Origin: a phage
Strand: one strand, 5' to 3'
Sequence record: PX880100.1
Length of the DNA stretch: 64,000 nt
The notes under the pieces were generated by a model. The model searched no databases. It was not told where the DNA came from and was given only the letters and a program-made list of their open reading frames with translations. The translations under genes and the position numbers were made by a program. Shown here one piece after another: positions 20,186 through 44,926 of this stretch (the first letter of the stretch is position 1; each line of letters starts with the position of its first letter).

Positions 20186-20258
20186 ATATTTGTAAGTTGA
20201 TAAACAAGATCTTTTTGTTGATCCTCTGTTAGCGAAGTACACTATAGGAGTGTTATTT

Positions 20259-33838: not shown

Positions 33839-33913
33839 CGGGGTGTAGTCTAAGGGAGAGGCAGGAGTCTTCTAAATTCCTTTATGCAGGTTCGAATCCT
33901 GTCACCTCGGCCA
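33839..33913 (+). tRNA. tRNA-Arg (anticodon UCU)
   Basis: Acceptor CGGGGTG/CACCTCG, D-arm GTCT..AGGC, anticodon arm GGAGT-CTTCTAA-ATTCC, T-arm GCAGG-TTCGAAT-CCTGT, encoded CCA. Confidence 0.7.
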
Positions 33914-33947
33914 ATTTTATTAACTGTAACTAAAACAAAGGAAATAT

Positions 33948-34895
33948 ATGTTTAATACTAAAAATATGAAAGAACTGACTTCTGAGCAGAAAGTAATTCG
34001 TACTATTAAACGTTGGGGGATTGGTGCTGTAGTTGGTTTAGCAGGTTTAGTTCTAGCTCTTAACTCCTATACCGTTGTTCAAGACGGTACTGTTAAGACC
34101 CAGACTTTCTTGGGTAAAGTTGATCCTAATCCAGTATTACCTGGTTTCCATGTTGTAAATCCTTTTGCTTCTTTTGATACTTTTAGTACTAAAGATATTG
34201 CTCTAAAATTAGATAAACTTCAGGTTCCTAGTCAGGATAAGTTTAAATCCACTGTTGACCTGACTGTTATGTTGCAGTTTGATGGTTCTAAAGCACCGAT
34301 TAACCGTATTAATGCAGGTAATCAGGATCAAGCGTTAGACAAATATGTAACTGAAAAATTACTGTCTACTATTCGTGAGTTTGGTAAGTCTGTACCTAAA
34401 GCACAAGATTTATTTGATGCTAAAATTCAGGCTCAATTGCAAACTGCAATTCAACAGGAAGTTGAAGAGTATGCACGCCCATATGGTTACACAGTTAAGC
34501 AGGTGTTCCTTCAGGATATTACTTTGCCACCGGTAATCATGGAACAGGTACAGAATACCAAAGTTCGTGAAGAACAGGTTAATGCTGCTAAAGCTGAATT
34601 AGCTCGTGTTGAACAGGAAGCACAGCAAAAAGTTAAACAAGCAGAAGCAGATCGTGAAGCTCGCAACAACCAAGCTATTGCTAATGAACGTGACGCAGAT
34701 GCTAAACTGTACGCAGCTAAGAAAGAAGCTGAAGCTAACGCCGCATTGCAACGTACCATTACTCCTGAGATGATTCGCTGGAAGCAACTGGAAGTTGAAA
34801 TGATCCGTGCTCAGAAGTATCAAGGTGGTGTACCACAGACGGTAGTTGGTACTGGTTATGATGGCCAAATGATCATGGATATGCGTAATAAATAA
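33948..34895 (+). CDS. SPFH/band-7 (prohibitin/HflC-like) membrane protein
   Basis: 315 aa; N-terminal TM helix (WGIGAVVGLAGLVLALN), central SPFH-like region, C-terminal coiled coil rich in A/E/Q/K/R. Confidence 0.6.
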   Translation: MFNTKNMKELTSEQKVIRTIKRWGIGAVVGLAGLVLALNSYTVVQDGTVKTQTFLGKVDPNPVLPGFHVVNPFASFDTFSTKDIALKLDKLQVPSQDKFKSTVDLTVMLQFDGSKAPINRINAGNQDQALDKYVTEKLLSTIREFGKSVPKAQDLFDAKIQAQLQTAIQQEVEEYARPYGYTVKQVFLQDITLPPVIMEQVQNTKVREEQVNAAKAELARVEQEAQQKVKQAEADREARNNQAIANERDADAKLYAAKKEAEANAALQRTITPEMIRWKQLEVEMIRAQKYQGGVPQTVVGTGYDGQMIMDMRNK

Positions 34896-34919
34896 TACCC
34901 GCATGTAACATCTGAAGTA

Positions 34920-34954
34920 AGCCCTGCGTTTCCTGGAGAGCGCAGGGCTTTTCT
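34920..34954 (+). terminator. rho-independent terminator
   Basis: AGCCCTGCG...CGCAGGGCT hairpin followed by TTTCT; approximate. Confidence 0.6.
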
Positions 34955-34991
34955 ATATAATGTAATTATAAAACTAACTAGGAGATTAAAC

Positions 34992-35510
34992 ATGGGTGTT
35001 GATGAATTAACACAGCATCTTCTATCTAGAGGATTTGATGCAGATAAATATCATTGCTGGTTAAGTCCGGAAGGATGGCTAACAGTCCCGTTGTATGATT
35101 TCTCTGGGATGTTGAGGGGCTATCAAACTTATAATCCTTCTGCTCCAAAAGGTCATGGTAAGTATCCCTTTGAAGCTAAATATTTTACCTATTCTACTAC
35201 CCAGTGTGTATGGGGATTAGAAACTCTCAATGGAGATGAAAAAGTAGTATTGATCGCTGAATCTGTATTTAAGGCAGTTGCGTTACATAACGCTGGTTAT
35301 CCAGCCCTAGCAATGTTGGGTTCTTCTCCAGGAAAAGCGTTATTAAAGCAACTGAAATTATTACCTTTTAAATTGGTAGCTGTCGGGGATAACGATCCTG
35401 CGGGTGAAAAATTTGCTAGAAAATTAAACGGCTTTGTTTCTCCTGTAGATGTGGATGAGATGTCTACCGAAAACTTGAAAAATTTTCTTGCTATGAAGCT
35501 AAATTTCTAA
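34992..35510 (+). CDS. hypothetical protein (172 aa)
   Basis: Track ORF with GGAGA RBS. Confidence 0.5.
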   Translation: MGVDELTQHLLSRGFDADKYHCWLSPEGWLTVPLYDFSGMLRGYQTYNPSAPKGHGKYPFEAKYFTYSTTQCVWGLETLNGDEKVVLIAESVFKAVALHNAGYPALAMLGSSPGKALLKQLKLLPFKLVAVGDNDPAGEKFARKLNGFVSPVDVDEMSTENLKNFLAMKLNF

Positions 35511-35531
35511 TATAATATATCTTATAAATTC

Positions 35532-35620
35532 GGAAGAATAGCATAACGGTATTGCAGCAGATTGCTAATCTGTCGGTTTGAAATATAGCCTTGTGGGTTC
35601 GATTCCCACTTCTTCCGCCA
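35532..35620 (+). tRNA. tRNA-Ser (anticodon GCU), class II
   Basis: Acceptor GGAAGAA/TTCTTCC, 3-bp D-stem, anticodon arm GCAGA-TTGCTAA-TCTGT, long variable arm, T-arm GTGGG-TTCGATT-CCCAC, encoded CCA. Confidence 0.7.
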
Positions 35621-35626
35621 AATTCT

Positions 35627-35704
35627 GGTTCTCAAGCTCATATGGTATGAGCACCCAGCTCATAACTGGAAGGTACGTAGGTTCGAATCCTCGGGGAGCC
35701 ACCA
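35627..35704 (+). tRNA. tRNA with CAU anticodon (Met or Ile2 type)
   Basis: Acceptor GGTTCTC/GGGAGCC with G-U pairs, D-arm GCTC..GAGC, anticodon loop CTCATAA, encoded CCA; T-stem has two mismatches, so fold is uncertain. Confidence 0.5.
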
Positions 35705-35922
35705 ACTTAATTAGGGGATTACAAGTGGAATTATACATAGTTTATGTTGTGTTTATTCAAGATAGAGAATACCCTGATGAATATAAAAAAGGATATAGGT
35801 TAGCCAGAGCTACCTCTGAAGTCCAAGCTATGGATAAAGTGGCAGATTATATGATTACGGTAGAAAACGTACACTATATCGACTACCTTGAGGCCTCAAA
35901 AGTAATTGACTAAGGAGACTAT

Positions 35923-36108
35923 ATGTCCAAGTTTCAAGAACTCAAGCAAGAGCTAGAAGAATGTGCCTGCCCTGAGTGTAGGGGAATTGGTGAAAGTTCT
36001 GATGCAGAAGCAGGAGATACTTTTTGCAATATCTGGGTTTGCCCAAATTGCAATGGTACAGGTATTAATCCTAACTGTGGTATTTCTCTAGATATTGAAA
36101 GAGGGTAA
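35923..36108 (+). CDS. small zinc-ribbon-like protein (61 aa)
   Basis: Track ORF; CxxC...CxxC cysteine pairs (CACPECRG, CPNCNG); AAGGAG RBS. Confidence 0.5.
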   Translation: MSKFQELKQELEECACPECRGIGESSDAEAGDTFCNIWVCPNCNGTGINPNCGISLDIERG

Positions 36109-36209
36109 TATCTGTGAAACTAAAAGATTATTATATTGGTTGGTTTGTGGGACTAGTAGTAGGATTTTCACTAGGCTATAATATGTATCAACTAATAAAC
36201 TGATTACAC

Positions 36210-36286
36210 GGGGGTGTAATCGAATTGGCATAGGTACTGGACTTAAAATTCAGGTTTTGTGGGTTCGAATCCCACCACCCCTACCA
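36210..36286 (+). tRNA. tRNA with UAA anticodon (Leu-type anticodon, short variable arm)
   Basis: Acceptor GGGGGTG/CACCCCT, anticodon arm CTGGA-CTTAAAA-TTCAG, T-arm GTGGG-TTCGAAT-CCCAC, encoded CCA; D-arm not cleanly resolved. Confidence 0.5.
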
Positions 36287-36301
36287 AATTAAGGAAATAA
36301 G

Positions 36302-36469
36302 ATGTATAGACCTCCACCTCCGCCAACACGTCGTTCTAGAGAAGTTATCCTCATGGAATTGACTAAAAACTTCAAGGCAACTCTTGAAGATAGAGATTTA
36401 GGCACGGATGAAGACATTGATTTTATTTGTAGACTATTAAAGATGAAACTGGAGAAACAACATGGCTAA
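36302..36469 (+). CDS. hypothetical small protein (55 aa, below track cutoff)
   Basis: ATG at 36302 with AAGGAAATAAG RBS right after the tRNA; proline-rich N-terminus; overlaps the next ORF start. Confidence 0.5.
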   Translation: MYRPPPPPTRRSREVILMELTKNFKATLEDRDLGTDEDIDFICRLLKMKLEKQHG

Positions 36470-36668
36470 TCCTGAAATTACCGCACAACGTTTCATGCTT
36501 AAAGGCATGATTGCTGAAGCAGGTATGACTCAAGAGGTTGCAGACTTTCATAAGCAAATTCTTGATATTATAACTCTAGCTAAAGAGACTGGAGAAAAAG
36601 AGCACGCAGCAGCAATTATGGCTATATCTCTTATTAGTCTAGACTTGGCTGAAGAATCTGGAGTTTAG
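36462..36668 (+). CDS. hypothetical protein (68 aa)
   Basis: Track ORF. Confidence 0.5.
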   Translation: MANPEITAQRFMLKGMIAEAGMTQEVADFHKQILDIITLAKETGEKEHAAAIMAISLISLDLAEESGV

Positions 36669-36698
36669 CTCCTCCAAATAGAATTTTTAAAAATGTAC

Positions 36699-36728
36699 TT
36701 GCCTTTTGCTTTAAATTTCTGATATAAT
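36699..36728 (+). promoter_or_regulatory. early promoter
   Basis: TTGCCT, 18-bp spacer, TATAAT, then AGTTATATAAATTGATGAAGGAG; approximate. Confidence 0.55.
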
Positions 36729-36758
36729 AGTTATATAAATTGATGAAGGAGTTAACTA

Positions 36759-37034
36759 ATGCAAAATCGTGTTATAGCAACTGGTATTGAAAGTGCAATC
36801 TGTAAATCCTGGGAAGGCTGGGAAGGTGAGATTGAATGGCTTTATTTCTATGATGTAGAACTTCTGCCGGAAGTTAAAGCTAAATGTGTTGAAGCTGGAA
36901 TGGCTCCAGATGCAAAAGCTGATATTGATATTTCAATGTCTGAACTTAAAGGCCGTGTAATTACTGTTAGTGATGAGGGTGAAGAAGTTTTCGAACTTCC
37001 ATTCTCCTTAACTGTCACTCCTAAGTTCGACTAA
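36759..37034 (+). CDS. hypothetical protein (91 aa)
   Basis: Track ORF downstream of promoter. Confidence 0.5.
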   Translation: MQNRVIATGIESAICKSWEGWEGEIEWLYFYDVELLPEVKAKCVEAGMAPDAKADIDISMSELKGRVITVSDEGEEVFELPFSLTVTPKFD

Positions 37035-37070
37035 CTAATACAGCACTGAGCAAGTTCTTTAAAATTTGAC

Positions 37071-37099
37071 TTGCTCAGTGCCTTAAAACTTGGTATAAT
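37071..37099 (+). promoter_or_regulatory. early promoter feeding a tRNA block
   Basis: TTGCTC, 17-bp spacer, TATAAT; followed by a 14-bp inverted-repeat leader hairpin and tRNAs; approximate. Confidence 0.5.
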
Positions 37100-37161
37100 A
37101 GTTATCTAATTTGGAAACATATTTAAAAGTGTTTAAACTAGTATTTGAATACTTTTAAATA

Positions 37162-37267
37162 TGTTGGATTAGTATCGTAGAGGTAGCGAAGCAGACTGTA
37201 AATCTGCCGACTCGGAAGGGTCTCGGGTGGTTCGACTCCATCATCCATCATCCATCATCCAACACCA
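37162..37267 (+). tRNA. tRNA-Tyr-like (anticodon GUA), class II, atypically long; boundaries uncertain
   Basis: Perfect anticodon arm GCAGA-CTGTAAA-TCTGC, D-stem TCG/CGA, T-arm GGTGG-TTCGACT-CCATC; 3' region carries ATCCATC-ATCCATC-ATCCAAC then ACCA; GTTGGAT pairs with the last copy. Confidence 0.5.
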
Positions 37268-37274
37268 AATTTAA

Positions 37275-37351
37275 GTCCTGTTAGACAAACTGGTAAAGTC
37301 ACTACCCTTTCAAGGTAGGATTTGCGGGTTCGATCCCCGCACAGGACGCCA
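37275..37351 (+). tRNA. tRNA-Glu (anticodon UUC)
   Basis: Acceptor GTCCTGT/ACAGGAC, anticodon arm CTACC-CTTTCAA-GGTAG, T-arm GCGGG-TTCGATC-CCCGC, encoded CCA. Confidence 0.8.
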
Positions 37352-37360
37352 ATTTCTGCA

Positions 37361-37436
37361 TTCCTAGAGTGTTACTGGACAGCATGTCGGTCTCCAAAAT
37401 CGTACGGTCTAGGTTCGAGTCCTAGTAGGTTTGCCA
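37361..37436 (+). tRNA. tRNA-Trp-like (anticodon CCA), acceptor pairing unresolved
   Basis: Anticodon arm TCGGT-CTCCAAA-ATCGT and T-arm CTAGG-TTCGAGT-CCTAG with encoded CCA; spacing to neighbouring tRNAs fits, but 5' acceptor strand could not be paired by eye. Confidence 0.4.
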
Positions 37437-37442
37437 AAATTT

Positions 37443-37517
37443 GCACCTTTAGCTGAGATGGATTAGCGCTTGCCTGAAGAGCTTGAGAGGTTCGTTCGAT
37501 ACGAACAGGGTGCACCA
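37443..37517 (+). tRNA. tRNA-Phe-like (anticodon GAA)
   Basis: Acceptor GCACCTT/AGGGTGC, D-arm GCTG..TAGC, T-arm GTTCG-TTCGATA-CGAAC, encoded CCA; anticodon loop CTGAAGA but stem has two U-U mismatches. Confidence 0.55.
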
Positions 37518-37519
37518 AA

Positions 37520-37807
37520 TTGAGGGGGCTGCTGATGCATCCTGAAAACTTCTTTATTTACTGCGCTGATAAGTCGCTGAAACGTAGAATTAACAAAGTC
37601 TATCATTATCGTGCTAGTCAACAGCCTTATGTATATGCTTTTGACGGTGATCACATTCCATTAGAACAATTATCTTGTGATTACATGATATTGAAGAACT
37701 TTGACGAGACAAAGATCTCAAGCGTTCATAATCGACAGAATCCCTTAACGTGGAAATATAAGAAGAAAAAGAAAGGCATCAAATTCTTAAAAAATGTAGT
37801 TGCTTAG
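37520..37807 (+). CDS. hypothetical protein (95 aa)
   Basis: Track ORF starting 3 nt after the tRNA; TTG start. Confidence 0.45.
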   Translation: MRGLLMHPENFFIYCADKSLKRRINKVYHYRASQQPYVYAFDGDHIPLEQLSCDYMILKNFDETKISSVHNRQNPLTWKYKKKKKGIKFLKNVVA

Positions 37808-37828
37808 TTTCCAAAAGTTCTGTATAAT
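37800..37828 (+). promoter_or_regulatory. PN25-type early promoter
   Basis: TTGCTT, 17-bp spacer, TATAAT, then AATTACATAAATTGAACTGGAG; approximate. Confidence 0.55.
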
Positions 37829-37857
37829 AATTACATAAATTGAACTGGAGAAGCAAC

Positions 37858-38082
37858 ATGACAGAACAAGAATTGAATGAACGTAAGCTGGTAATGCTCC
37901 GCTTACTAAACATTTTCTCTGGTATGGATGGGGGTATTGACTTTGTTCATCTACGTTCTTTTGTAGAAGAAGCAGAAGGTGAATCTATCACTAAAATCCT
38001 TAAACATATGGGTTTACTATTAGATGCTGCTGGTGTAGCAACGGAATATAACCTCGAAGATCTACCGGAGCGTATTAAATGA
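37858..38082 (+). CDS. hypothetical protein (75 aa)
   Basis: ATG at 37858 with GGAG RBS; track lists an extended frame from 37840. Confidence 0.5.
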   Translation: MTEQELNERKLVMLRLLNIFSGMDGGIDFVHLRSFVEEAEGESITKILKHMGLLLDAAGVATEYNLEDLPERIK

Positions 38083-38267
38083 AGAAGCCAAAAGCTAAAT
38101 TAGTTAAGTTCGACTGTTGTGACACAGAAATCTTATTCACTAAGTTTGGTGAATTTAAGATGTGTGAATGTGGAACATGTGGTTATGATCATGGTGATGG
38201 ATATTATTGCAGGACTCTTGGACCAGCAAATCTAATCCACTTTTCATGGCCGGAAGATAAAGAATAA
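38079..38267 (+). CDS. small zinc-ribbon-like protein (62 aa)
   Basis: Track ORF; cysteine clusters FDCCDTE and CECGTCGYDHGDGYYC; 4-nt overlap with upstream gene. Confidence 0.5.
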   Translation: MKKPKAKLVKFDCCDTEILFTKFGEFKMCECGTCGYDHGDGYYCRTLGPANLIHFSWPEDKE

Positions 38268-38269
38268 TT

Positions 38270-38344
38270 GCATCCTTGTCCGAGTGGCTTAGGTGACGGT
38301 CTGCAAAATCGTCTAGGTTGGTTCAATTCCAGCAGGGTGCTCCA
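38270..38344 (+). tRNA. tRNA-Cys (anticodon GCA)
   Basis: Acceptor GCATCCT/AGGGTGC, anticodon arm ACGGT-CTGCAAA-ATCGT, T-arm GTTGG-TTCAATT-CCAGC, encoded CCA. Confidence 0.7.
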
Positions 38345-38350
38345 AATTCA

Positions 38351-38433
38351 GGGTCGTTAGCCAAGCGGTTTGGCGGTGGACTGTTAATCCATGTCGAAAG
38401 ACAACGTAGGTTCGAATCCTACACGGCCCGCCA
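38351..38433 (+). tRNA. tRNA-Asn (anticodon GUU) with an enlarged (~13-nt) variable region
   Basis: Acceptor GGGTCGT/ACGGCCC, D-arm GCCA..TGGC, anticodon arm GTGGA-CTGTTAA-TCCAT, T-arm GTAGG-TTCGAAT-CCTAC, encoded CCA. Confidence 0.65.
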
Positions 38434-38535
38434 AATTCTGTGTAGAGTTAAGTAAACCGGTAGCCAACCAGCTATCATTGCTGACATCGAATTCAGCCAC
38501 AGATACCATTTTCATTAATAACTGAGGAAACAAGC

Positions 38536-38721
38536 ATGTCCAAGAATGTAATTGCGCAGCTAGAAGTTCATCGTGATAGCACTATCAACAATATTGAAGT
38601 TGAGAAGAAATACATCGAAGAACTTAAACATGATATACTAGTAAGTCTCAACCGTCTTAATGTACGAAAAGAGTTTCTTAAAGAACTTAATGCAGCTATT
38701 GAAAAACTCAAAGCTGAGTAA
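38536..38721 (+). CDS. hypothetical protein (61 aa)
   Basis: Track ORF with GAGGAAAC RBS. Confidence 0.5.
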   Translation: MSKNVIAQLEVHRDSTINNIEVEKKYIEELKHDILVSLNRLNVRKEFLKELNAAIEKLKAE

Positions 38722-38730
38722 ATGAATTAT

Positions 38731-38807
38731 GCGACCGGGGCTGGCTTGGTAATGGTACTCCCCTGTCACGGGAGGGAATGTGGGTTCAAATCCCATCGGT
38801 CGCGCCA
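38731..38807 (+). tRNA. tRNA-Asp (anticodon GUC)
   Basis: Acceptor GCGACCG/CGGTCGC, anticodon arm CTCCC-CTGTCAC-GGGAG, T-arm GTGGG-TTCAAAT-CCCAT, encoded CCA. Confidence 0.8.
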
Positions 38808-38824
38808 AATAAGGTAGGTTAGCT

Positions 38825-38983
38825 ATGGAACGTAGAGAGTTTACTCCAGAAGAGATAGAGCAGATAAAAGAATCTGCTACGAAAAATGCTAGAATATCTC
38901 TGTCACTAGAAGGTATCATTATTAGTGATGTAAACTTTGAAAAAATCAAAGCCATAGCTGATGAACTGGAAAAAGTAATTTAA
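38825..38983 (+). CDS. hypothetical small protein (52 aa, below track cutoff)
   Basis: ATG at 38825 with AAGGTAGG RBS between two tRNAs; acidic helical peptide. Confidence 0.45.
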   Translation: MERREFTPEEIEQIKESATKNARISLSLEGIIISDVNFEKIKAIADELEKVI

Positions 38984-38984
38984 T

Positions 38985-39060
38985 ACATCCATAGCTCAAT
39001 GGTTAGAGCTACCGCCTCTTAAGCGGAGGGTTCTAGGTTCAAGTCCTAGTGGGTGTACCA
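38985..39060 (+). tRNA. tRNA-Lys (anticodon CUU)
   Basis: Acceptor ACATCCA/TGGGTGT, D-arm GCTC..GAGC, anticodon arm CCGC-CTCTTAA-GCGG, T-arm CTAGG-TTCAAGT-CCTAG, encoded CCA. Confidence 0.65.
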
Positions 39061-39086
39061 AACTAAACTAGCACGAGAAATATACT

Positions 39087-39434
39087 ATGCGTAATGCTAA
39101 AGAAGAGTTGTTACTTGCCTTAAAAAATACTAATTCTGAAGTTAAGTGTATTAAAATAGAATTCGGGTATTATGGGGACAAAAAAGTTTGGGTATTACCT
39201 CTGGGGTATACAGAAGAAGATATTGGGGATTTTCTTAATAACCTAGACTTTGAGTATGATTCTGGTTATGGTGGACAACTACTTTATGGTAATGTATGGT
39301 TTGCCGATGGAACCTGGCTAGAACGTGGGGAATATGATGGAGCTGAGTGGTGGGAATACAAGGCTACTCCAGCAATTCCAGAGGAATGCCGAACAATTAA
39401 TGGTGAAGTAGATAATACTTTAAGGTTAAACTAA
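39087..39434 (+). CDS. hypothetical protein (115 aa)
   Basis: Track ORF. Confidence 0.5.
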   Translation: MRNAKEELLLALKNTNSEVKCIKIEFGYYGDKKVWVLPLGYTEEDIGDFLNNLDFEYDSGYGGQLLYGNVWFADGTWLERGEYDGAEWWEYKATPAIPEECRTINGEVDNTLRLN

Positions 39435-39438
39435 TAAA

Positions 39439-39538
39439 ATTTCAGTGCAGAACACGGAGCTAGCAATTCGGAAGTGCTGACTCATGATAAGCTGCCTATG
39501 TACTTGCAAAGCGGTCGTGTCCAAGACTCGGACTCTTG
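39439..39538 (+). ncRNA. structured ORF-free element closed by a ~10-bp long-range stem
   Basis: TTCAGTGCAG at the 5' end pairs with CTTGCACTGAA at the 3' end, enclosing internal hairpins (GTCC-AAGACTC-GGAC); no ORF. Confidence 0.35.
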
Positions 39539-39556
39539 CACTGAAAACAATCAAAC

Positions 39557-39684
39557 ATTCTAGCGTGGTTGATGGGGAAACCAGCTTGGCTAGGGCAGAA
39601 GCTCGTTCGATTCGAGTGAAAGAATGGTTCTCGTAAGTCCGCACAAGTGATAATAGGTTCGAGTCCTGTCTAGAATGACACTAT
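39557..39684 (+). ncRNA. tRNA-like element of atypical length (~128 nt)
   Basis: ATTCTAG...CTAGAAT acceptor-like pairing, D-arm-like GGTT-GATGGGGA-AACC, two T-arm-like motifs; too long for a canonical tRNA. Confidence 0.3.
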
Positions 39685-39826
39685 AAAGTTTACTTATTAT
39701 GTAGGTTCCGATAGATCGGCGGGTCTATTCTGGCATTTAAGAGAGGTCTCGCAAACTTCTTTGTCAGCCGTGGGGTTGGTAGCCTCCAGGTGGCCTACAC
39801 AATAAGTAAATTTATTAAAAATTCAT

Positions 39827-39855
39827 TTGCTATTTCTCTTAATTATCTGTATAAT
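39827..39855 (+). promoter_or_regulatory. PN25-type early promoter
   Basis: TTGCTA, 17-bp spacer, TATAAT, then ATATTTTATAAAGTGAAGAGAAGG; approximate. Confidence 0.55.
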
Positions 39856-39887
39856 ATATTTTATAAAGTGAAGAGAAGGAAAGCAAA

Positions 39888-40046
39888 ATGAAACACAAGA
39901 TAGCTCAAGTTTTTATGGCATTATGGTGTATGCCAATAGCTATAACAGCATTTAATCTAGATACTTTTACTATAGAAGAAAAATGTATCGGATTAGTTAG
40001 TGGCTTTAGTATGCTTGGCTTATCTTTGTTGTGGTTGAAGAAATAA
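39888..40046 (+). CDS. hypothetical small membrane peptide (52 aa, below track cutoff)
   Basis: ATG at 39888 with GAAGGAAAG RBS after the promoter; hydrophobic sequence; stops 4 nt before tRNA-Pro. Confidence 0.5.
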   Translation: MKHKIAQVFMALWCMPIAITAFNLDTFTIEEKCIGLVSGFSMLGLSLLWLKK

Positions 40047-40050
40047 TATT

Positions 40051-40128
40051 CTCCGTGTAGCTCAGTTTGGCCAGAGCGTTTCGTTTGGGGCGATAGGGTC
40101 GGGGGTTCAAATCCTCCCACGGAGACCA
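40051..40128 (+). tRNA. tRNA-Pro (anticodon UGG)
   Basis: Acceptor CTCCGTG/CACGGAG, D-arm GCTC..GAGC, anticodon loop TTTGGGG (stem with one U-U), T-arm GGGGG-TTCAAAT-CCTCC, encoded CCA. Confidence 0.7.
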
Positions 40129-40134
40129 AACAAT

Positions 40135-40212
40135 TGCGGGTTAGATCTCTGGTAGAGATCGCTAGTCTCATAAGCTAGAAAGAGGTAGGTTCGATTCCTG
40201 CACCCGCTTCCA
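40135..40212 (+). tRNA. tRNA with CAU anticodon (Met-type; T-T mismatch at pair 1-72)
   Basis: Acceptor TGCGGGT/ACCCGCT, D-arm GATC..GATC, anticodon arm CTAGT-CTCATAA-GCTAG, T-arm GTAGG-TTCGATT-CCTGC, encoded CCA. Confidence 0.6.
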
Positions 40213-40232
40213 TTTTAATAGAGGATTTCGAA

Positions 40233-40400
40233 ATGAAAGTATTTCGATTAGTAGTAAGTGACAAACGCTTAGGTAAGAATACATCAAAATCCTTACTTGC
40301 TCATTATGGTAGAAATTGGGATGAAGTAATGGCAGAGTTTAGTACTAATCACTCTTACTTGAAAGTTCACTCTATTAAAGAAGTATACAATGGTTACTAA
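40233..40400 (+). CDS. hypothetical small protein (55 aa, below track cutoff)
   Basis: ATG at 40233 with GAGGA RBS between tRNAs. Confidence 0.45.
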   Translation: MKVFRLVVSDKRLGKNTSKSLLAHYGRNWDEVMAEFSTNHSYLKVHSIKEVYNGY

Positions 40401-40401
40401 T

Positions 40402-40480
40402 AGATCGCTAGCTCAATAGGTTTAGTAGCATCCGACTTTTAATCGGAAGGTTCTGGGTTCAAGTCCCAGGCGATCTACCA
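40402..40480 (+). tRNA. tRNA-Lys (anticodon UUU)
   Basis: Acceptor AGATCGC/GCGATCT, anticodon arm TCCGA-CTTTTAA-TCGGA, T-arm CTGGG-TTCAAGT-CCCAG, encoded CCA. Confidence 0.8.
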
Positions 40481-40484
40481 ATTT

Positions 40485-40558
40485 GCTCGGTTAGTTTAAT
40501 GGGAGAACCCCGTCTTTACATGGCGGTTGAGATAGTTCGATTCTATCACCGGGTACCA
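40485..40558 (+). tRNA. tRNA-Val (anticodon UAC)
   Basis: Acceptor GCTCGGT/ACCGGGT, anticodon arm CCGTC-TTTACAT-GGCGG, T-arm GATAG-TTCGATT-CTATC, encoded CCA. Confidence 0.8.
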
Positions 40559-40577
40559 ATTAACTCAAAATAAGGAA

Positions 40578-40937
40578 TTGCAAATGCAATTATCAAGCAA
40601 GATTCAAGGTTATTTCGGTCATGTGACAATGGAGTTCGCTATCTCTAAAGGTTGGGACTTCGAACAAGATTTAGCTGAGTTCTACAAAGATATTGATCTG
40701 AACGTACCGTACATGGGACTTTCTACTGGTCAGGAGATCACAGAAGCCGATGTATTCAAGGCAAGTCAAGGTGAGGTAACACCTAGTTTTGCCGAGTTCT
40801 GGTTAGGCATTACGTTAAAAGAAGATGCACCAGATAGTGGTGTACTAATGTCTAGTATGCACTCTGGAAGTTCCGATTACCTTTTCATTAGCGATGTTAA
40901 GGAAATACAAGAAGTCTGCAAAAATGTACTTGCTTGA
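40578..40937 (+). CDS. hypothetical protein (119 aa)
   Basis: Track ORF (TTG start; in-frame ATG at 40584) with AAGGAATTG RBS. Confidence 0.5.
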   Translation: MQMQLSSKIQGYFGHVTMEFAISKGWDFEQDLAEFYKDIDLNVPYMGLSTGQEITEADVFKASQGEVTPSFAEFWLGITLKEDAPDSGVLMSSMHSGSSDYLFISDVKEIQEVCKNVLA

Positions 40938-40957
40938 TGCTTAATTTCTTGTTATAA
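40929..40957 (+). promoter_or_regulatory. PN25-type early promoter feeding an ORF-free leader and tRNAs
   Basis: TTGCTT, 17-bp spacer, TATAAT, then ATTTATATAAATTGATGAGGAG; approximate. Confidence 0.55.
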
Positions 40958-41195
40958 TATTTATATAAATTGATGAGGAGAAATCCTCATCATAGTTCAC
41001 TAAGGTATTAGCTCGACCTAGGACTGGCTGCCAAAAAGCACGATCCCTACGATTCGGGAGAAGTTCTAGATTGGTCCACTAGATTCAGCGGCAACTGAAT
41101 AGTGTATTGGGTTTGCGAGATGACGTAGTTCCTTCCGCTCTAAGCGAAGGTGCTGTAGTTACGCCGAGCTAATAGCCTTAGTAAACTAAAGAATT

Positions 41196-41274
41196 TGGGG
41201 AATGGGTCTGCATGGAGTGGACACCTCGCTTGCACCGAGGACATCAGAACGGTTCGATTCCGTTATTCTCCACC
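41196..41274 (+). tRNA. tRNA-Ala (anticodon UGC)
   Basis: Acceptor GGGGAAT/ATTCTCC, D-arm GTCT..GGAC, anticodon arm CCTCG-CTTGCAC-CGAGG, T-arm AACGG-TTCGATT-CCGTT, encoded CCA. Confidence 0.8.
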
Positions 41275-41279
41275 AAATA

Positions 41280-41356
41280 CGCGTGATTGATGGAATTGGC
41301 ATACATACCGTCCTTAGAAGTCGGGTTTTGAGGGTTCGAATCCCTTGTCACGCACC
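41280..41356 (+). tRNA. tRNA with UAG anticodon (Leu-type anticodon, short variable arm)
   Basis: Acceptor GCGTGAT/GTCACGC, anticodon arm CCGTC-CTTAGAA-GTCGG (one mismatch), T-arm GAGGG-TTCGAAT-CCCTT, encoded CCA. Confidence 0.5.
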
Positions 41357-41468
41357 AAATTTGATGGTCAGAGTAAATTAAACCTACTATCTCGGTTGAG
41401 CTGTTTTAATGGGTTCGAATCCCAGCGAGGCGTAACTGCCTGGTGTGATAGAGGCATCATCTTATTAT

Positions 41469-41559
41469 TGGAAGAGCAAATCGAATTGGCGACGAAAACC
41501 GCTTGGAAAGTGGCTGACTGGTAAAACGGCTTGAGAGTTCAAATCTCTCCTCTTCCGCC
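41469..41559 (+). tRNA. tRNA-Ser (anticodon GGA), class II
   Basis: Acceptor GGAAGAG/CTCTTCC, anticodon arm ACCGC-TTGGAAA-GTGGC, long variable arm, T-arm GAGAG-TTCAAAT-CTCTC, encoded CCA. Confidence 0.7.
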
Positions 41560-41571
41560 AAACAATTTATA

Positions 41572-41666
41572 TGGTAGGTCAATCCAATGGCTGGCGTGGG
41601 ACTCCGACTTGAAATCGGTTGATCGTAGTGATACGGTGTAAGGGTTCGATCCCCTTACCTACCTCC
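41572..41666 (+). tRNA. tRNA-Ser (anticodon UGA), class II
   Basis: Acceptor GGTAGGT/ACCTACC, anticodon arm TCCGA-CTTGAAA-TCGGT, long variable arm, T-arm AAGGG-TTCGATC-CCCTT, encoded CCA. Confidence 0.7.
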
Positions 41667-42032
41667 AAATCTTGAAGTATGCCGGAATCGGTAGACGGGG
41701 CTGCCTAAAAGGTTTATAGGGAACATCCACTCCCTGCAACATACCCCATAAAGCGGCTGAGATAAATGGTCTATCTCGTGAAGGTTCAAGTCCTTCTGCT
41801 TCTTGATACATCAATGGCTCAAAGTGTAACGGCGCTATTTGATGCGCTTAGTAAGACTTCCCCGACATGCGTTCGGGAGTAAGCTGCTAAGGCTAGAGTA
41901 GAAGAGTTTCTGAGAGCCGCCACAATTGAAGATTCGTACTCGTCTTGAGCTGCGTGCAATAGGAGATAACTTGATTAGTATTCTAGAACATGCTAATTGA
42001 GGAAGGTTTCGCTAACCCTGCGAGTTTTCAAT

Positions 42033-42109
42033 TGTGGCTATATCATAATTGGTTAATGATCCTGATTGTGAATCAGGCCTATGTGGATTCGAATTCCACT
42101 AGCCACCCC
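42033..42109 (+). tRNA. tRNA-His (anticodon GUG)
   Basis: Acceptor GTGGCTA/TAGCCAC, D-arm TCAT..ATGA, anticodon arm CCTGA-TTGTGAA-TCAGG, T-arm GTGGA-TTCGAAT-TCCAC, encoded CCA. Confidence 0.85.
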
Positions 42110-42135
42110 AAATTAACTTAAATAGGAAATAAAAT

Positions 42136-42330
42136 ATGGCTGATTTCTGCAAACAATGCTCCATTGATATGTGGGGCAGAGATACTGGTGATCTTTCTGG
42201 TTTGATTACAGAAGCTGAAGTTAAAGAAGGCTACGGTGCTGTTGTGATTTGCGAGGGATGCGGAGTTATTCGAGTAGATCATGAAGGCAAACGTTTGGAA
42301 GAATCTGAGCCAACAACAATTTTTCCGTAG
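42136..42330 (+). CDS. small zinc-ribbon-like protein (64 aa)
   Basis: Track ORF; CKQCS...CEGCG cysteine pairs; AGGAAATAAA RBS. Confidence 0.5.
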   Translation: MADFCKQCSIDMWGRDTGDLSGLITEAEVKEGYGAVVICEGCGVIRVDHEGKRLEESEPTTIFP

Positions 42331-42342
42331 AATAAAAATTAT

Positions 42343-42418
42343 TGGGATGTAGATCAATTGGCAGATCGTCGGCCTCTGACTCCGAAGGCTCCACGTTCGA
42401 TCCGTGGCATCCCAGCCA
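42343..42418 (+). tRNA. tRNA-Gln (anticodon CUG)
   Basis: Acceptor TGGGATG/CATCCCA, D-arm GATC..GATC, anticodon loop CTCTGAC, T-arm CCACG-TTCGATC-CGTGG, encoded CCA. Confidence 0.7.
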
Positions 42419-42424
42419 AATAAT

Positions 42425-42500
42425 TGGAGAGTAGTGTAACGGTTAGCACAACGGCCTTTGACTCCGTTAATGGTAGGTTCGATTCCTCCTTCTCCAGCCA
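42425..42500 (+). tRNA. tRNA-Gln (anticodon UUG)
   Basis: Acceptor TGGAGAG/TTCTCCA, D-arm GTGT..GCAC, anticodon loop CTTTGAC, T-arm GTAGG-TTCGATT-CCTCC, encoded CCA. Confidence 0.7.
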
Positions 42501-42508
42501 AATAATAA

Positions 42509-42584
42509 GCGGTTAAGCACACGGGTTGTGTCGCAGGCCTTCCAAGCCTCGCTGAGTAGGGTTCGATTCCCTCTAGCCGCTCCA
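42509..42584 (+). tRNA. tRNA-Gly (anticodon UCC)
   Basis: Acceptor GCGGTTA/TAGCCGC, anticodon arm AGGC-CTTCCAA-GCCT, T-loop TTCGATT, encoded CCA. Confidence 0.65.
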
Positions 42585-42600
42585 ACTTTAAGGGGACATT

Positions 42601-42822
42601 ATGCACGTTTTTGAGTTTCGTAATAAAAGTACCGATAAACGAGTTATTGTTATCGGGGAAACATACCGAGCATACGAACAAACTGACGGCTCTGTTATCC
42701 TGAATGACGAAAAAGGAGGTTTTAGCTTTTATCCCAAAGAAACTTACGAAGAATTTCGTACAAAGTTTCTTCTACCAGACTGGCTAGAAGTAGCGCAGCA
42801 ACGAGAACCCGAAGATGGCTGA
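42601..42822 (+). CDS. hypothetical protein (73 aa)
   Basis: Track ORF with AAGGGGAC RBS. Confidence 0.5.
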   Translation: MHVFEFRNKSTDKRVIVIGETYRAYEQTDGSVILNDEKGGFSFYPKETYEEFRTKFLLPDWLEVAQQREPEDG

Positions 42823-42979
42823 TAACCTAAAAGTCAAGATCGATAAACAAAAGAAACGTGTCGAAGTAGAGATTGGTGAAGAACGTGTAGCCTTCACCTT
42901 TGAATTTCTACAACAAATGGCAATGACAGTTATGACTGATAAGTCTCCTGTTATTGAAAAAGAAATCCCGTTGAAATAA
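42815..42979 (+). CDS. hypothetical small protein (54 aa, below track cutoff)
   Basis: ATG at 42815 overlapping the upstream stop; ends 10 nt before tRNA-Thr. Confidence 0.4.
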   Translation: MADNLKVKIDKQKKRVEVEIGEERVAFTFEFLQQMAMTVMTDKSPVIEKEIPLK

Positions 42980-42988
42980 CGGGCTATC

Positions 42989-43063
42989 GCTCCTAAAGCA
43001 TTGTTGGCGATGCAGTTGCCTTGTAAGCATCTGAACCGGGTTCGATTCCTGGTGGGAGCACCA
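42989..43063 (+). tRNA. tRNA-Thr (anticodon UGU)
   Basis: Acceptor GCTCCTA/TGGGAGC, D-arm GCAT..ATGC, anticodon loop CTTGTAA, T-arm CCGGG-TTCGATT-CCTGG, encoded CCA. Confidence 0.75.
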
Positions 43064-43078
43064 AATTTAAAAATTCAT

Positions 43079-43107
43079 TTGCTTTCTCTCTTATTTCTTG
43101 TTATAAT
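43079..43107 (+). promoter_or_regulatory. PN25-type early promoter
   Basis: TTGCTT, 17-bp spacer, TATAAT, then ATTTATATAAATTAATGAGAGGG; approximate. Confidence 0.55.
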
Positions 43108-43137
43108 ATTTATATAAATTAATGAGAGGGAAGCCAA

Positions 43138-43431
43138 ATGAAACGTTATCTTTCTGTTGTGTTCCAAACTGGTGGTCAGCGCTATACTTACGAATTTCCT
43201 GGCTCTTGGAAAGTCAAAGAAGGTGATCAAGTAGTTGTATTAACACCGCGTGACGGGTATAAGGTAGTAACGGTTAAGCAAGTATTTTCAAAAGACTATG
43301 AACCGTCTAAGTCTATTAACTATAAGATGATTCATGGTGTAGTTCGTCAAGTACCACGAGCGGAAGTCGAAATCAAAGTAGATAAAGATGATAAACTTAA
43401 ATATACCTCTTGCATAGACGAGTTGCTATAA
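43138..43431 (+). CDS. hypothetical protein (97 aa)
   Basis: Track ORF downstream of promoter. Confidence 0.5.
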   Translation: MKRYLSVVFQTGGQRYTYEFPGSWKVKEGDQVVVLTPRDGYKVVTVKQVFSKDYEPSKSINYKMIHGVVRQVPRAEVEIKVDKDDKLKYTSCIDELL

Positions 43432-43637
43432 TGAGGATTACTTTTACAGAAAAGATTATGAGTAATGGTGTTATGATCATTACCGCATGGGACAGTAATC
43501 AGTGGTGTAGTGTTTCAGGTATTAAGCCTGAAGAACAAACACTAGAAAATATCTCAAAGATTAAGCGAAGAATGGCAGAACGTGCACGACTTCCAGGTGC
43601 ACCTAGAAATGGCAAACGTTCTGCTGTGAAATGTTAA
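43431..43637 (+). CDS. hypothetical protein (68 aa)
   Basis: ATG at 43431 overlapping the upstream TAA (TAATG); track lists a longer frame from 43410. Confidence 0.45.
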   Translation: MRITFTEKIMSNGVMIITAWDSNQWCSVSGIKPEEQTLENISKIKRRMAERARLPGAPRNGKRSAVKC

Positions 43638-43638
43638 T

Positions 43639-43715
43639 GCTTCGGTAGCTTAGCGATCTAAAGCACTCGGCTGATAACCGAGAGATCGGGGGTTTAAATC
43701 CCTCCCGGAGTACCA
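43639..43715 (+). tRNA. tRNA-Ile (anticodon GAU)
   Basis: Acceptor GCTTCGG/CCGGAGT, D-arm GCTT..AAGC, anticodon arm CTCGG-CTGATAA-CCGAG, T-arm GGGGG-TTTAAAT-CCCTC, encoded CCA. Confidence 0.8.
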
Positions 43716-43811
43716 AATTTAGGAATTAAGACTATGCGTCCAGGAAAGTTTAGAAAAGCTAATTGGTCTAAAGAGTATAAAGAATACTTACTTAGTCTAG
43801 TAAAACATAAC

Positions 43812-43887
43812 AGTTAGTTGGCAGAGTGGTTATGCACCTCCTTCATACGGAGCGACTACAGTGGTTCAAATCCACTACTAACTACCA
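43812..43887 (+). tRNA. tRNA-Met (anticodon CAU)
   Basis: Acceptor AGTTAGT/ACTAACT, anticodon loop TTCATAC, T-arm AGTGG-TTCAAAT-CCACT, encoded CCA. Confidence 0.7.
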
Positions 43888-43924
43888 TTAAAACAGCTAG
43901 AGATAGCTAAATATAGGAGCAATT

Positions 43925-44119: not shown

Positions 44120-44161
44120 AGAATAAAGAGCTGAGCCAATTTCTAACATCAGGGAGATCTA

Positions 44162-44530
44162 ATGAAAGCATATCAAAATCTTAAATCTGGAGTAATCAAC
44201 CTCGTTCATGAAAATCAGATCATTCAACTATACTCCGATAACGGTGAACTTAAACAGAAAGTTCTAGTTGAAGACCTAGAAGGTATCACACCACAATTCG
44301 ATCCCGAAGCCTTCCGTGAGGTCAAAGTGGAAGTCGCCCCTCAAATCGAAGGTGGTCAACACCTAAACGTCAATGTGTTAAGCCGTGATCAGCTTTTGGA
44401 TGCGCAGAAACATCCTGAAAAATACCCTCAATTAACTATCCGTGTTTCAGGGTACGCTGTACGTTTTAACGCACTGACGCGTGAACAACAGAACGACGTT
44501 ATTAGTCGTACATTTACTCAGGCGATGTAA
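44162..44530 (+). CDS. autonomous glycyl-radical cofactor-like protein (GrcA/YfiD-like)
   Basis: 122 aa; C-terminal [31 protein letters not shown] closely resembles the glycyl-radical motif RVSGYAVRF of GrcA and pyruvate formate-lyase C-termini. Confidence 0.7.
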
Positions 44531-44611
44531 TGGGGTTTGGATACGGTTTCTCCGAACTACGCAAGGTAGTCGAGCAAACTCCATTTATCTCTCAAGTTTT
44601 AGGAGAAATGT

Positions 44612-44926
44612 GTGGATCGAGCATTAAGACGTCATCACCGCCAACGTGTGAAGAACAACCGCAAGAAGTATTGGACAGTCTTTCCACATGAAGAAAGCCC
44701 TAAGCGGTTAGGTATTATCACTACTACTCCTTGCATCTGTTCTTGTTGGATGTGTGGGGACCCTCGCAAATACTATAAGAATAGTAAAGCAGGCATGAAA
44801 ATTTCGGAGATTAGAAAAATGGAAGCAATGATTATGGGCATCTCAAATGATGAATTTGATGGCTTTGTAGGATTCGGAGAAGGAATTAGCTCAGGCTGTT
44901 TCGAAGATGAACGCCCCGATCTGTAA
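44612..44926 (+). CDS. hypothetical protein (104 aa)
   Basis: Track ORF (GTG start) followed by a terminator. Confidence 0.45.
   Translation: MDRALRRHHRQRVKNNRKKYWTVFPHEESPKRLGIITTTPCICSCWMCGDPRKYYKNSKAGMKISEIRKMEAMIMGISNDEFDGFVGFGEGISSGCFEDERPDL

What the first reader, a model, noticed from the sequence alone, without database searches (positions are those of the whole stretch)
44162..44530. Stand-alone GrcA-like glycyl-radical protein; nrdD present without a recognisable activase
The 122-aa product ends in [31 protein letters not shown], a close match to the glycyl-radical motif of GrcA/YfiD and pyruvate formate-lyase C-termini. The window also encodes a full class III RNR (nrdD, 18032..19906) with its own RVCGYLG motif, but no ORF here carries a CxxxCxxC radical-SAM activase motif. 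The phage seems to rely on host activating enzymes while carrying a spare glycyl-radical domain, possibly to repair oxygen-cleaved host or phage glycyl-radical enzymes.
Basis: partly seen in the sequence, partly recalled or inferred. Interest (0 to 1): 0.5.

Follow-up and report, generated by a model that had tools for sequence, protein, structure and literature searches.

The report
T5-like phage GrcA spare-part protein
This is the T5-type phage copy of a known small "spare part" protein that lets oxygen-damaged pyruvate formate-lyase work again; both it and the missing anaerobic-reductase activase are already annotated or published, so the finding is correct but ordinary.

Summary
The window is a T5-like phage (Tequintavirus), 95-97% identical in DNA to many GenBank records. 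The ORF at 44162..44530 (+) is real. It encodes 122 aa, has a good Shine-Dalgarno site, and ends in a PFL-type glycyl-radical domain (Pfam Gly_radical 3.7e-18; E. coli YfiD/GrcA structure 6OWR 1.4e-30; 49/62 identical to the PflB C-terminus). It is full-length homologous to the T4-type vs.6/Y06I protein, which was shown in 2001 to be activated by host PFL activase and to rescue O2-cleaved PFL. It occurs in about 436 T5-like and about 1150 T4-like phage records, is often already annotated "autonomous glycyl radical cofactor", and is under strong purifying selection.

nrdD (18032..19906, minus strand) is confirmed. No NrdG or PflA homologue exists in the window or in a complete 97%-identical genome. 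Published work (Dwivedi 2013) already lists T5 among phages described as carrying nrdD with nrdAB but no nrdG.

One reader statement is literally wrong. A 104-aa ORF just downstream (44612..44926) contains CICSCWMC, which fits CxxxCxxC. Its first Cys is not conserved and it is not an activase.

The only possibly new angle is that in other phage lineages the GrcA-like gene lies inside nrdD/nrdG operons. This suggests it protects the formate supply for the class III reductase.

The parts
44162..44530 (+). GrcA/Y06I-type autonomous glycyl-radical cofactor gene (122 aa plus stop).
   Evidence: ORF. Pfam Gly_radical 3.7e-18. TIGR04365 GrcA 121 bits, below the 170-bit cut-off. 6OWR YfiD 1.4e-30. phrog_1209 8e-48 over residues 1-122. 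pN/pS 0-0.2 against T5-like relatives.
44151..44156 (+). Shine-Dalgarno-like AGGGAG, 5 nt upstream of the ATG.
   Evidence: Read directly from the sequence.
44162..44341 (+). N-terminal half (aa 1-60). It is variable and begins with a phage-type MKAYQ.L start. In E. coli YfiD the corresponding region is disordered and promotes radical installation by PFL-AE.
   Evidence: Alignments. 16 of the 20 variable positions among T5-like copies fall here. The role of the YfiD N-terminus is from PMC13450708.
44342..44527 (+). C-terminal glycyl-radical domain (aa 61-122). It is PFL-type, with the radical glycine Gly97 at 44450-44452 in RVSGYAV.
   Evidence: 49/62 identical to E. coli PflB 699-760 and 48/62 to E. 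coli GrcA. RVSGYAV is present in 80/80 viral loci.
44530..44691 (+). 53-aa ORF whose ATG overlaps the GrcA-like stop codon (TAATG). Function unknown; it is context only.
   Evidence: phrog_31464 1.5e-36.
44612..44926 (+). 104-aa small basic Cys/His protein containing CICSCWMC, the only CxxxCxxC match in the window. It is not a radical-SAM activase.
   Evidence: Motif scan. No Pfam hit. phrog_4499. Only RHH...TP.CSC.MC..RK is conserved in homologues from Erwinia, Rhizobium and Vibrio phages.
18032..19906 (-). nrdD, the class III (anaerobic) ribonucleotide reductase. It has no ATP-cone, a formate-type active-site motif and a Zn-ribbon, and no cognate nrdG.
   Evidence: Pfam NRDD 4.4e-172. 54% identical to E. 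coli NrdD 113-705. It keeps the residues aligned to E. coli C175 and M382-G-C384, the CxxC...CxxC pairs and RRVCGYLG.

Best explanation
The ORF encodes the T5-group version of the phage and enterobacterial 'spare part' protein GrcA/YfiD (T4 Y06I, gene vs.6).

Proposed mechanism, by homology with the two characterised members:
1. The host pyruvate formate-lyase activating enzyme PflA (radical SAM) abstracts a hydrogen from Gly97 in the RVSGYAV loop of the small protein.
2. When O2 cleaves host PflB at its own radical glycine (Gly734), the radical-bearing small protein docks in place of the lost C-terminal glycyl-radical domain.
3. This restores pyruvate -> acetyl-CoA + formate.

For the phage, this keeps fermentative ATP and acetyl-CoA production and formate production running in an infected cell under microaerobic conditions. 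T5 is known to shut off host gene expression and degrade host DNA early in infection (my own knowledge, not tested here), so such a cell would no longer be able to resynthesise PflB or GrcA.

The phage encodes no activase of its own. Both this protein and the phage NrdD must therefore be radicalised by pre-existing host enzymes, PflA and NrdG respectively.

Shown here: the sequence family, the conserved radical motif, purifying selection, and the absence of any activase.
Inferred: activation by PflA, docking to PflB, activation of NrdD by host NrdG, and the physiological benefit.

A likely additional purpose (about 35%) is to protect the supply of formate, which is the reductant of E. coli/T4-type class III RNR.
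For: Family and domain:
- Pfam Gly_radical 3.7e-18. The best NCBIfam model is GrcA (TIGR04365, 3.5e-35).
- 6OWR YfiD 1.4e-30 and PflB 5e-27, with every residue of [14 protein letters not shown] identical.
- 49/62 identical to the PflB C-terminus and 48/62 to E. coli GrcA.
- Full-length homology (59%) to T4-type vs.6 with a shared MKAYQ N-terminus. phrog_1209 8e-48 over 1-122.

Precedent: T4 Y06I and E. coli YfiD are activated by PFL-AE and restore O2-cleaved PFL (Wagner 2001, as described in PMC8683613, and PMC13450708).

Conservation:
- RVSGYAV is present in 80/80 viral loci.
- Eight relatives encode an identical protein despite 19-25 synonymous differences (pN/pS 0-0.2).

No activase: including a complete relative genome.

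Formate link:
- Formate is the reductant of E. coli-type NrdD, and PFL makes it (PMC4390871; the Mulliez 1995 reference).
- The window NrdD keeps the residues aligned to E. coli M382-G-C384 and C175.
- The GrcA-like gene lies inside nrdD/nrdG operons in Aeromonas phage Ah1, Salmonella jumbo phage 7t3 and four IMG/VR contigs.
Against: - There is no biochemical or genetic data for any T5-group protein.
- The N-terminal 60 residues, which in YfiD promote radical installation by PFL-AE, are poorly conserved with E. coli GrcA.
- The protein scores below the curated TIGR04365 equivalog cut-off (121 < 170). The T4-type protein also does (153 < 170).
- 13 of 62 domain residues differ from PflB, so docking is not guaranteed.
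- In this genome the gene is about 24 kb from nrdD, in the tRNA/small-ORF early region, so local context gives no functional clue.
- From my memory of Young et al. 1994 (not verifiable here), T4 NrdD needed its own NrdG even in E. coli. That would make activation of the T5-type NrdD by host NrdG uncertain.
Confidence: 0.8

Rival explanations
1. The small protein is a spare glycyl-radical domain for the phage's own NrdD, replacing the C-terminal piece lost on O2 cleavage.
For: The phage encodes both proteins. In other phages the GrcA-like gene lies between or next to nrdD and nrdG. Reviews note that spare parts for GREs other than PFL are conceivable but not known.
Against: The domain is PFL-type, 49/62 identical to PflB. 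It shows no significant similarity to the window NrdD (BLASTP E=5.8). The NrdD radical domain has RRVCGYLG preceded by a CxxC...CxxC Zn-ribbon, which the small protein lacks. The T4 homologue was shown to work on PFL.
Confidence: 0.03
2. The protein is a decoy or sink. It competes with host PflB/GrcA for PflA, or binds PflB, to shut down or redirect host fermentation rather than to rescue it.
For: Phages often encode mimics of host protein fragments. The N-terminal half differs from host GrcA. No direct functional data exist for the T5 group.
Against: The radical glycine and its whole loop are invariant, and the domain is under strong purifying selection. That fits a catalytically competent cofactor better than a mere binder. 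T4 Y06I restores PFL activity in vitro. T4-type copies are 60/62 identical to host GrcA in the domain, which fits an identical function.
Confidence: 0.07
3. The ORF is a functionless remnant of a captured host pflB or grcA 3' end.
For: The domain is a near-copy of the 3' end of host genes.
Against: The full-length ORF with its SD site is conserved in about 436 T5-like records at 80% identity or more. pN/pS is 0-0.2, with up to 33 synonymous changes. The N-terminal half is shared with T4-type phage proteins, not with pflB.
Confidence: 0.02

Closest known systems
Bacteriophage T4 Y06I (gene vs.6), autonomous glycyl radical cofactor
   Same: It is also a stand-alone phage protein of about 120 aa. 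Homology is full-length: 59% identity to a Tequatrovirus copy, with a shared MKAYQ.L N-terminus. Both fall in the same PHROG, phrog_1209. The RVSGYAVRF radical loop is identical. Neither phage encodes a PFL activase of its own.
   Different: The T4-type domain is 60/62 identical to E. coli GrcA. The T5-type domain is equidistant from GrcA (48/62) and PflB (49/62) and ends in a PflB-like ...TFTQAM. T4 also carries its own nrdG next to nrdD, and this phage does not. The T4 protein is biochemically validated, and the T5-type is not.
E. coli GrcA/YfiD (PDB 6OWR; TIGR04365)
   Same: It has the same size class and the same C-terminal glycyl-radical domain (74% identity over 74 aa). The mechanism is presumably the same: PflA-activated replacement of the cleaved PflB C-terminus.
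   Different: The N-terminal roughly 50 residues are barely alignable. The protein scores 121 bits against the 170-bit equivalog cut-off, whereas E. coli GrcA scores 234. It is encoded by a lytic phage in a tRNA-rich early region rather than as an FNR/acid-regulated host gene.
C-terminal glycyl-radical domain of pyruvate formate-lyase PflB (residues 699-760)
   Same: 79% identity over 62 aa, including the Gly734 loop.
   Different: The roughly 700-residue catalytic barrel, including the Cys418/Cys419 active site, is absent. The protein cannot be a formate acetyltransferase, although many GenBank relatives label it 'pyruvate formate-lyase' or 'acetyltransferase'.
Phage class III RNR systems with nrdD plus nrdG (T4, Aeromonas phage Ah1, RaK2/7t3-like jumbo phages, Vibrio Demerecviridae such as Dax)
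   Same: The NrdD is of the same E. coli/T4 type (about 53-54% identity to the E. coli and Dax proteins by BLAST), with conserved Cys, Met-Gly-Cys, Zn-ribbon and Gly motifs.
   Different: There is no nrdG anywhere in the genome. Dwivedi et al. 2013 already describe many phages as carrying only nrdD with nrdAB, and discuss T5, SPC35 and EPS7 among these RNR arrangements.

Membership tests
[quoted passage not shown] | Small stand-alone protein (about 120-130 aa), not the C-terminus of a full-length GRE. | tested here: met
   The ORF is 122 aa with its own SD and ATG, and in-frame stops bound it. 65 of 80 related viral loci are likewise small ORFs. The 15 longer stop-to-stop frames are mostly full or truncated PflB on host-derived contigs (10 loci); 5 are only 169-180 aa with no PflB hit.
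[quoted passage not shown] | C-terminal PFL-type glycyl-radical domain with the RVSGYAV motif. | tested here: met
   Pfam PF01228 scores 66.4 bits against a 22.2-bit cut-off. The motif is identical to GrcA and PflB and invariant in 80/80 loci.
[quoted passage not shown] | Reaches the curated NCBIfam equivalog score (TIGR04365, 170 bits). | tested here: not met
   The score is 121 bits, and only residues 50-122 align. The T4-type vs.6 protein, whose T4 orthologue is one of the two validated members, also falls short at 153 bits, while E. coli GrcA scores 234. The cut-off therefore delimits bacterial GrcA, not the functional class. I file the protein under the phage Y06I/vs.6 type, not as a strict TIGR04365 equivalog.
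[quoted passage not shown] | Full-length homology to a biochemically validated member (T4 Y06I or E. coli YfiD). | tested here: met
   tblastn covers residues 1-122 at 52-56% identity in Tequatrovirus and other Straboviridae. The pairwise alignment gives 59%. phrog_1209 scores 8e-48 over 1-122.
[quoted passage not shown] | Glycyl radical installed by PFL activating enzyme, and restoration of activity to O2-cleaved PFL. | not testable with these tools
   This needs anaerobic biochemistry. The precedent exists only for YfiD and T4 Y06I.
Radical-SAM GRE activase (NrdG/PflA), considered for the 104-aa ORF at 44612..44926 | Conserved CxxxCxxC [4Fe-4S]/SAM cluster motif within a radical-SAM fold of about 150 aa or more, and a match to NrdG/PflA or Radical_SAM profiles. 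| tested here: not met
   The regex matches in the window protein (CICSCWMC). However, the first Cys is replaced in the Rhizobium and Vibrio homologues, and only CxCxxC is invariant. The ORF has no Pfam hit at E<=0.1. It is absent from the hit lists of the NrdG-profile and PflA searches, whose best E is 0.5. The matching PHROG profile is 88 positions long.
Class III ribonucleotide reductase NrdD (E. coli/T4 formate-type) | NRDD domain, the residues aligned to E. coli C175 and C384, a C-terminal Zn-ribbon and the RVCGY glycyl-radical motif. | tested here: met
   Pfam NRDD 4.4e-172 and Gly_radical 1e-22. The alignment shows NC, SMGCRSF, CGKC...CPIC and RRVCGYLG. That M382 marks the formate-type mechanism is from my own recollection of Wei et al. 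2014, which I could not retrieve.
Class III ribonucleotide reductase system (NrdD + NrdG) | A cognate activase gene nrdG in the same genome. | tested here: not met
   None is present in the window or in the complete 97%-identical genome OQ885479.1. This is consistent with Dwivedi 2013.

The most novel reading that the evidence does not exclude
Phage GrcA-type proteins may be accessory components of phage anaerobic dNTP synthesis rather than general fermentation helpers. By keeping host PFL alive after oxygen hits, they would secure formate, the obligatory reductant of E. coli/T4-type NrdD.

Support:
- Every GrcA-carrying phage lineage I checked for nrdD also carries it: T5-like, T4-like, Aeromonas Straboviridae and RaK2/7t3-like jumbo phages. 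A further group of metagenomic contigs (L086-L095) could not be checked.
- In two lineages the gene sits inside the operon: nrdD-grcA-nrdG, and nrdD-nrdG-grcA-nrdC-nrdH.

In the T5 group, which has lost or never had nrdG, anaerobic dNTP supply (phage NrdD, formate from host PFL) would then run on host activases plus phage-supplied radical-bearing proteins. I found no paper in the searchable library that makes this link.
Probability: 0.35. Interest if true: 0.5.

Novelty: already known. Interest (0 to 1): 0.2.

Why it matters
As it stands the finding matters little. It adds one more copy of a gene family found in about 1,600 phage records, and near-identical genomes already label it 'autonomous glycyl radical cofactor'.

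It is useful for annotation. Labels on relatives such as 'pyruvate formate-lyase', 'acetyltransferase' and '2-ketobutyrate formate-lyase' are misleading, because only the 62-residue radical domain is present.

If the formate-supply link to class III RNR were demonstrated, it would explain why unrelated enterobacterial phage lineages keep this tiny gene. It would also give a clean example of a phage protecting a host enzyme in order to feed a phage enzyme. The T5 group would be a natural test of whether a phage NrdD can be activated by the host NrdG.

Tried and rejected
- Hidden activase: I scanned all six frames for CxxxCxxC. I ran Pfam on the ORFs flanking nrdD and the GrcA-like gene, tblastn with E. 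coli NrdG and PflA, and an NrdG profile plus PflA phmmer with a T4 positive control. Nothing was found, in the window or in a complete relative.
- The 104-aa CICSCWMC ORF as a mini-activase or Fe-S partner: rejected. The CxxxCxxC spacing is not conserved. The family also occurs in Erwinia, Rhizobium and Vibrio phages; the about 3-kb loci I fetched around those genes show no GrcA-like gene, though I did not check the whole genomes.
- Spare part for NrdD: rejected on sequence.
- Is the T5-type NrdD more host-like than T4's, which would hint at host NrdG compatibility? It is not. It is about 52-54% identical to E. coli NrdD, against about 56-59% for T4. This is uninformative.
- Orthology between the window NrdD and that of the Vibrio demerecvirid Dax, to infer loss of nrdG: inconclusive. 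Dax is 53% identical to the window protein and 58% to E. coli.
- Promoter and terminator scan around the gene: no more sites than in shuffled sequence.
- Papers I could not retrieve: Wei et al. 2014 (PMC4246965) and Miller et al. 2003 (PMC150520).
- I did not use the large protein-database searches, structure prediction or fold search. Family assignment was already unambiguous from a solved homologue.

Full report
**What the window is.** Megablast of 43000-46000 and of 1-24000 finds hundreds of Tequintavirus/Epseptimavirus (T5-like, Demerecviridae, Markadamsvirinae) genomes at 95-97% identity over essentially the whole query. The window holds 24 tRNA genes between 33839 and 43887. It also holds the T5-type nucleotide-metabolism block: nrdD, a phoH-like gene and nrdA.

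**The observation.** The ORF at 44162..44530 (+) exists as described. It encodes 122 aa, starts at an ATG preceded by AGGGAG with a 5-nt spacer, and ends ...[33 protein letters not shown]. Its stop codon overlaps the ATG of a 53-aa ORF (TAATG). The similarity is not chance:
- Pfam Gly_radical scores 3.7e-18.
- The best NCBIfam model is the GrcA equivalog TIGR04365 at 3.5e-35.
- The best solved structure is E. coli YfiD/GrcA, 6OWR, at 1.4e-30, followed by PflB at 5e-27.

Over the last 62 residues the protein is 49/62 identical to PflB and 48/62 to E. coli GrcA.

nrdD is confirmed at the stated coordinates, but on the minus strand. It is 624 aa, with Pfam NRDD at 4.4e-172, and is 54% identical to E. 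coli NrdD residues 113-705, so it lacks the ATP-cone. It keeps the residues aligned to E. coli C175 and M382-G-C384, the CxxC...CxxC ribbon and RRVCGYLG.

**The activase question.** The 104-aa ORF at 44612..44926, immediately downstream of the GrcA-like gene, contains CICSCWMC. I followed this up:
- It has no Pfam hit.
- It belongs to phrog_4499, whose profile is 88 positions long.
- It has homologues in Erwinia, Rhizobium and Vibrio phages.
- In these only RHH...TP.CSC.MC..RK is conserved. The first Cys of the apparent CxxxCxxC is replaced.

It is a small basic Cys/His protein, probably metal-binding, and not a radical-SAM enzyme.

Independent searches gave nothing in the window or in the complete genome of the 97%-identical phage SUT_E1520 (OQ885479.1). 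tblastn with E. coli NrdG and PflA gave E>0.8. An HMM built from four NrdG sequences, and PflA by phmmer, were run over every six-frame segment of at least 40 aa. The best E was 0.5, while the T4 NrdG control scored 5e-77.

Dwivedi et al. 2013 already state that many phages carry only nrdD with nrdAB, and they describe the phoH gene between the two RNR classes in T5, SPC35 and EPS7 (PMC3653736). The absence is a trait of the enterobacterial subfamily, not of the whole family. The Vibrio demerecvirid Dax has an unannotated nrdG homologue (57% identical to E. coli NrdG) 3 kb downstream of its nrdD.

**What the protein is.** tblastn against 50,697 phage records finds it in 1,586 of them. About 436 are T5-like at 80% identity or more. 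About 1,150 match at lower identity (below 80%); in the sampled rows these are mostly T4-like and other Straboviridae, matching at 47-56% over the full length or at 66-72% over the C-terminal domain alone. In those records the gene is vs.6. I equate vs.6 with UniProt Y06I from my own knowledge; the regB-denV neighbourhood fits. Many records already call it 'autonomous glycyl radical cofactor (GrcA)'. Others mislabel it 'pyruvate formate-lyase' or 'acetyltransferase'.

The T5-type and T4-type proteins share the N-terminus MKAYQ.L, which E. coli GrcA lacks, and fall in one PHROG. The protein scores below the curated TIGR04365 cut-off (121 < 170). So does the T4-type protein (153), whereas E. coli GrcA scores 234. 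The cut-off therefore separates bacterial GrcA from phage versions rather than functional from non-functional ones.

The gene is clearly maintained by selection. RVSGYAV is present in all 80 IMG/VR loci retrieved. Eight T5-like relatives encode the identical protein despite 19-25 synonymous differences. pN/pS is 0-0.2 throughout. Sixteen of the 20 variable positions lie in residues 1-60.

**Mechanism.** The two characterised members, E. coli YfiD and T4 Y06I, receive a glycyl radical from the host PFL activating enzyme. They then bind O2-cleaved PFL and replace its lost radical domain (Wagner et al. 2001, as summarised in PMC8683613 and PMC13450708). Given 74-79% identity to GrcA and PflB in this domain and an invariant radical loop, I assign the same mechanism with about 0.8 confidence. 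Activation by host PflA and docking to host PflB are inferred, not shown.

Repair of the phage NrdD is very unlikely. The small protein has no significant similarity to NrdD (E=5.8) and lacks the Zn-ribbon that precedes the NrdD radical loop.

**Something noticed beyond the finding.** In Aeromonas phage Ah1 the order is nrdD-nrdG-vs.6-nrdC-nrdH. In Salmonella jumbo phage 7t3 it is nrdD-GrcA-like-nrdG. Three RaK2-like jumbo contigs and one 235-kb contig in IMG/VR show the same adjacency. Formate is the reductant of E. coli-type class III RNR, and PFL produces it (PMC4390871; the Mulliez 1995 reference).

A reasonable but untested reading is that phage GrcA mainly protects the formate supply for phage NrdD. 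I found no paper in the searchable library that makes this connection. In T5- and T4-like genomes the two genes are far apart, and the number of independent lineages is small. I therefore rate this at about 0.35.

**Verdict.** However, both halves of the finding are already in the public record: the GrcA-like spare part in a phage, and nrdD without nrdG in T5-like phages. Novelty is 'already known' and interest is low.

Noticed in passing
window 44612..44926 (+); homologues L010:1435-1728, L011:1492-1782, L012:1486-1710, L013:1501-1776: A small basic Cys/His protein family (phrog_4499) has the invariant pattern RHH...TP.CSC.MC..RK. It occurs in T5-like, Erwinia jumbo, Vibrio and Rhizobium phages. 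In the Rhizobium phage, as here, it lies in or next to a tRNA gene cluster. Function is unknown; it may bind metal or nucleic acid. Annotation in relatives is inconsistent: SUT_E1520 splits it into two ORFs.
   Followed up: partly
L014:1367-4947 (Aeromonas phage Ah1); L015:1824-4471 (Salmonella phage 7t3); L045, L046, L047, L075: In other phage lineages the GrcA-like gene is embedded in the class III RNR operon, either as nrdD-nrdG-grcA-nrdC-nrdH or as nrdD-grcA-nrdG. This suggests a functional coupling, possibly formate supply, that I did not find in the searchable literature.
   Followed up: partly
L096:5001-5483 (Vibrio phage Dax, Demerecviridae, Thalassavirus): A gene annotated 'hypothetical protein' (gp77) is an NrdG homologue, 57% identical to E. 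coli NrdG, about 3 kb downstream of nrdD. Some members of the T5 family therefore do carry the activase, and the enterobacterial subfamily does not.
   Followed up: partly
window 15862..17170 (-): Downstream of nrdD, on the same strand, lie a Sir2-family protein (271 aa; Pfam SIR2 8e-25) and an overlapping 170-aa protein with the 'HAD domain in Swiss Army Knife RNA repair proteins' (HAD_SAK_2, 9e-20). This is an NAD-dependent and RNA-repair-like pair in a tRNA-rich phage.
   Followed up: no
window 18032..19906 (-), NrdD residues about 88-92: The window NrdD, the 7t3 NrdD and the Vibrio phage Dax NrdD have a Cys-Cys pair (M/L-T-N-C-C-L-V) where E. coli and Ah1 have N-C-M/Q. That is an extra cysteine next to the residue aligned to E. 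coli C175. Its significance is unknown.
   Followed up: no
window 44162..44530 versus L002:4001-4363: T4-type vs.6 is 60/62 identical to E. coli GrcA in the radical domain. The T5-type is equidistant from GrcA and PflB and closest to the jumbo-phage 7t3 copy (52/62). All phage copies nevertheless share an MKA.Q.L N-terminus. This pattern suggests repeated recombination with host genes on a common phage-type N-terminal half.
   Followed up: partly
window 33839..43887 (+): There are 24 tRNA genes interspersed with small ORFs. The GrcA-like gene lies about 275 nt downstream of the last one (tRNA-Met, 43812-43887), separated from it by a 64-aa ORF.
   Followed up: no
window 20250..21011 (+) and 23767..24249 (+): A PhoH-like P-loop protein (GTGKTF) sits between nrdD and nrdA, as Dwivedi 2013 described for T5. 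A 160-aa ORF directly after nrdA looks like a homing endonuclease: it has an HNH-like 'DHDNRIRHDNR' stretch, and relatives have HNH genes annotated nearby.
   Followed up: no
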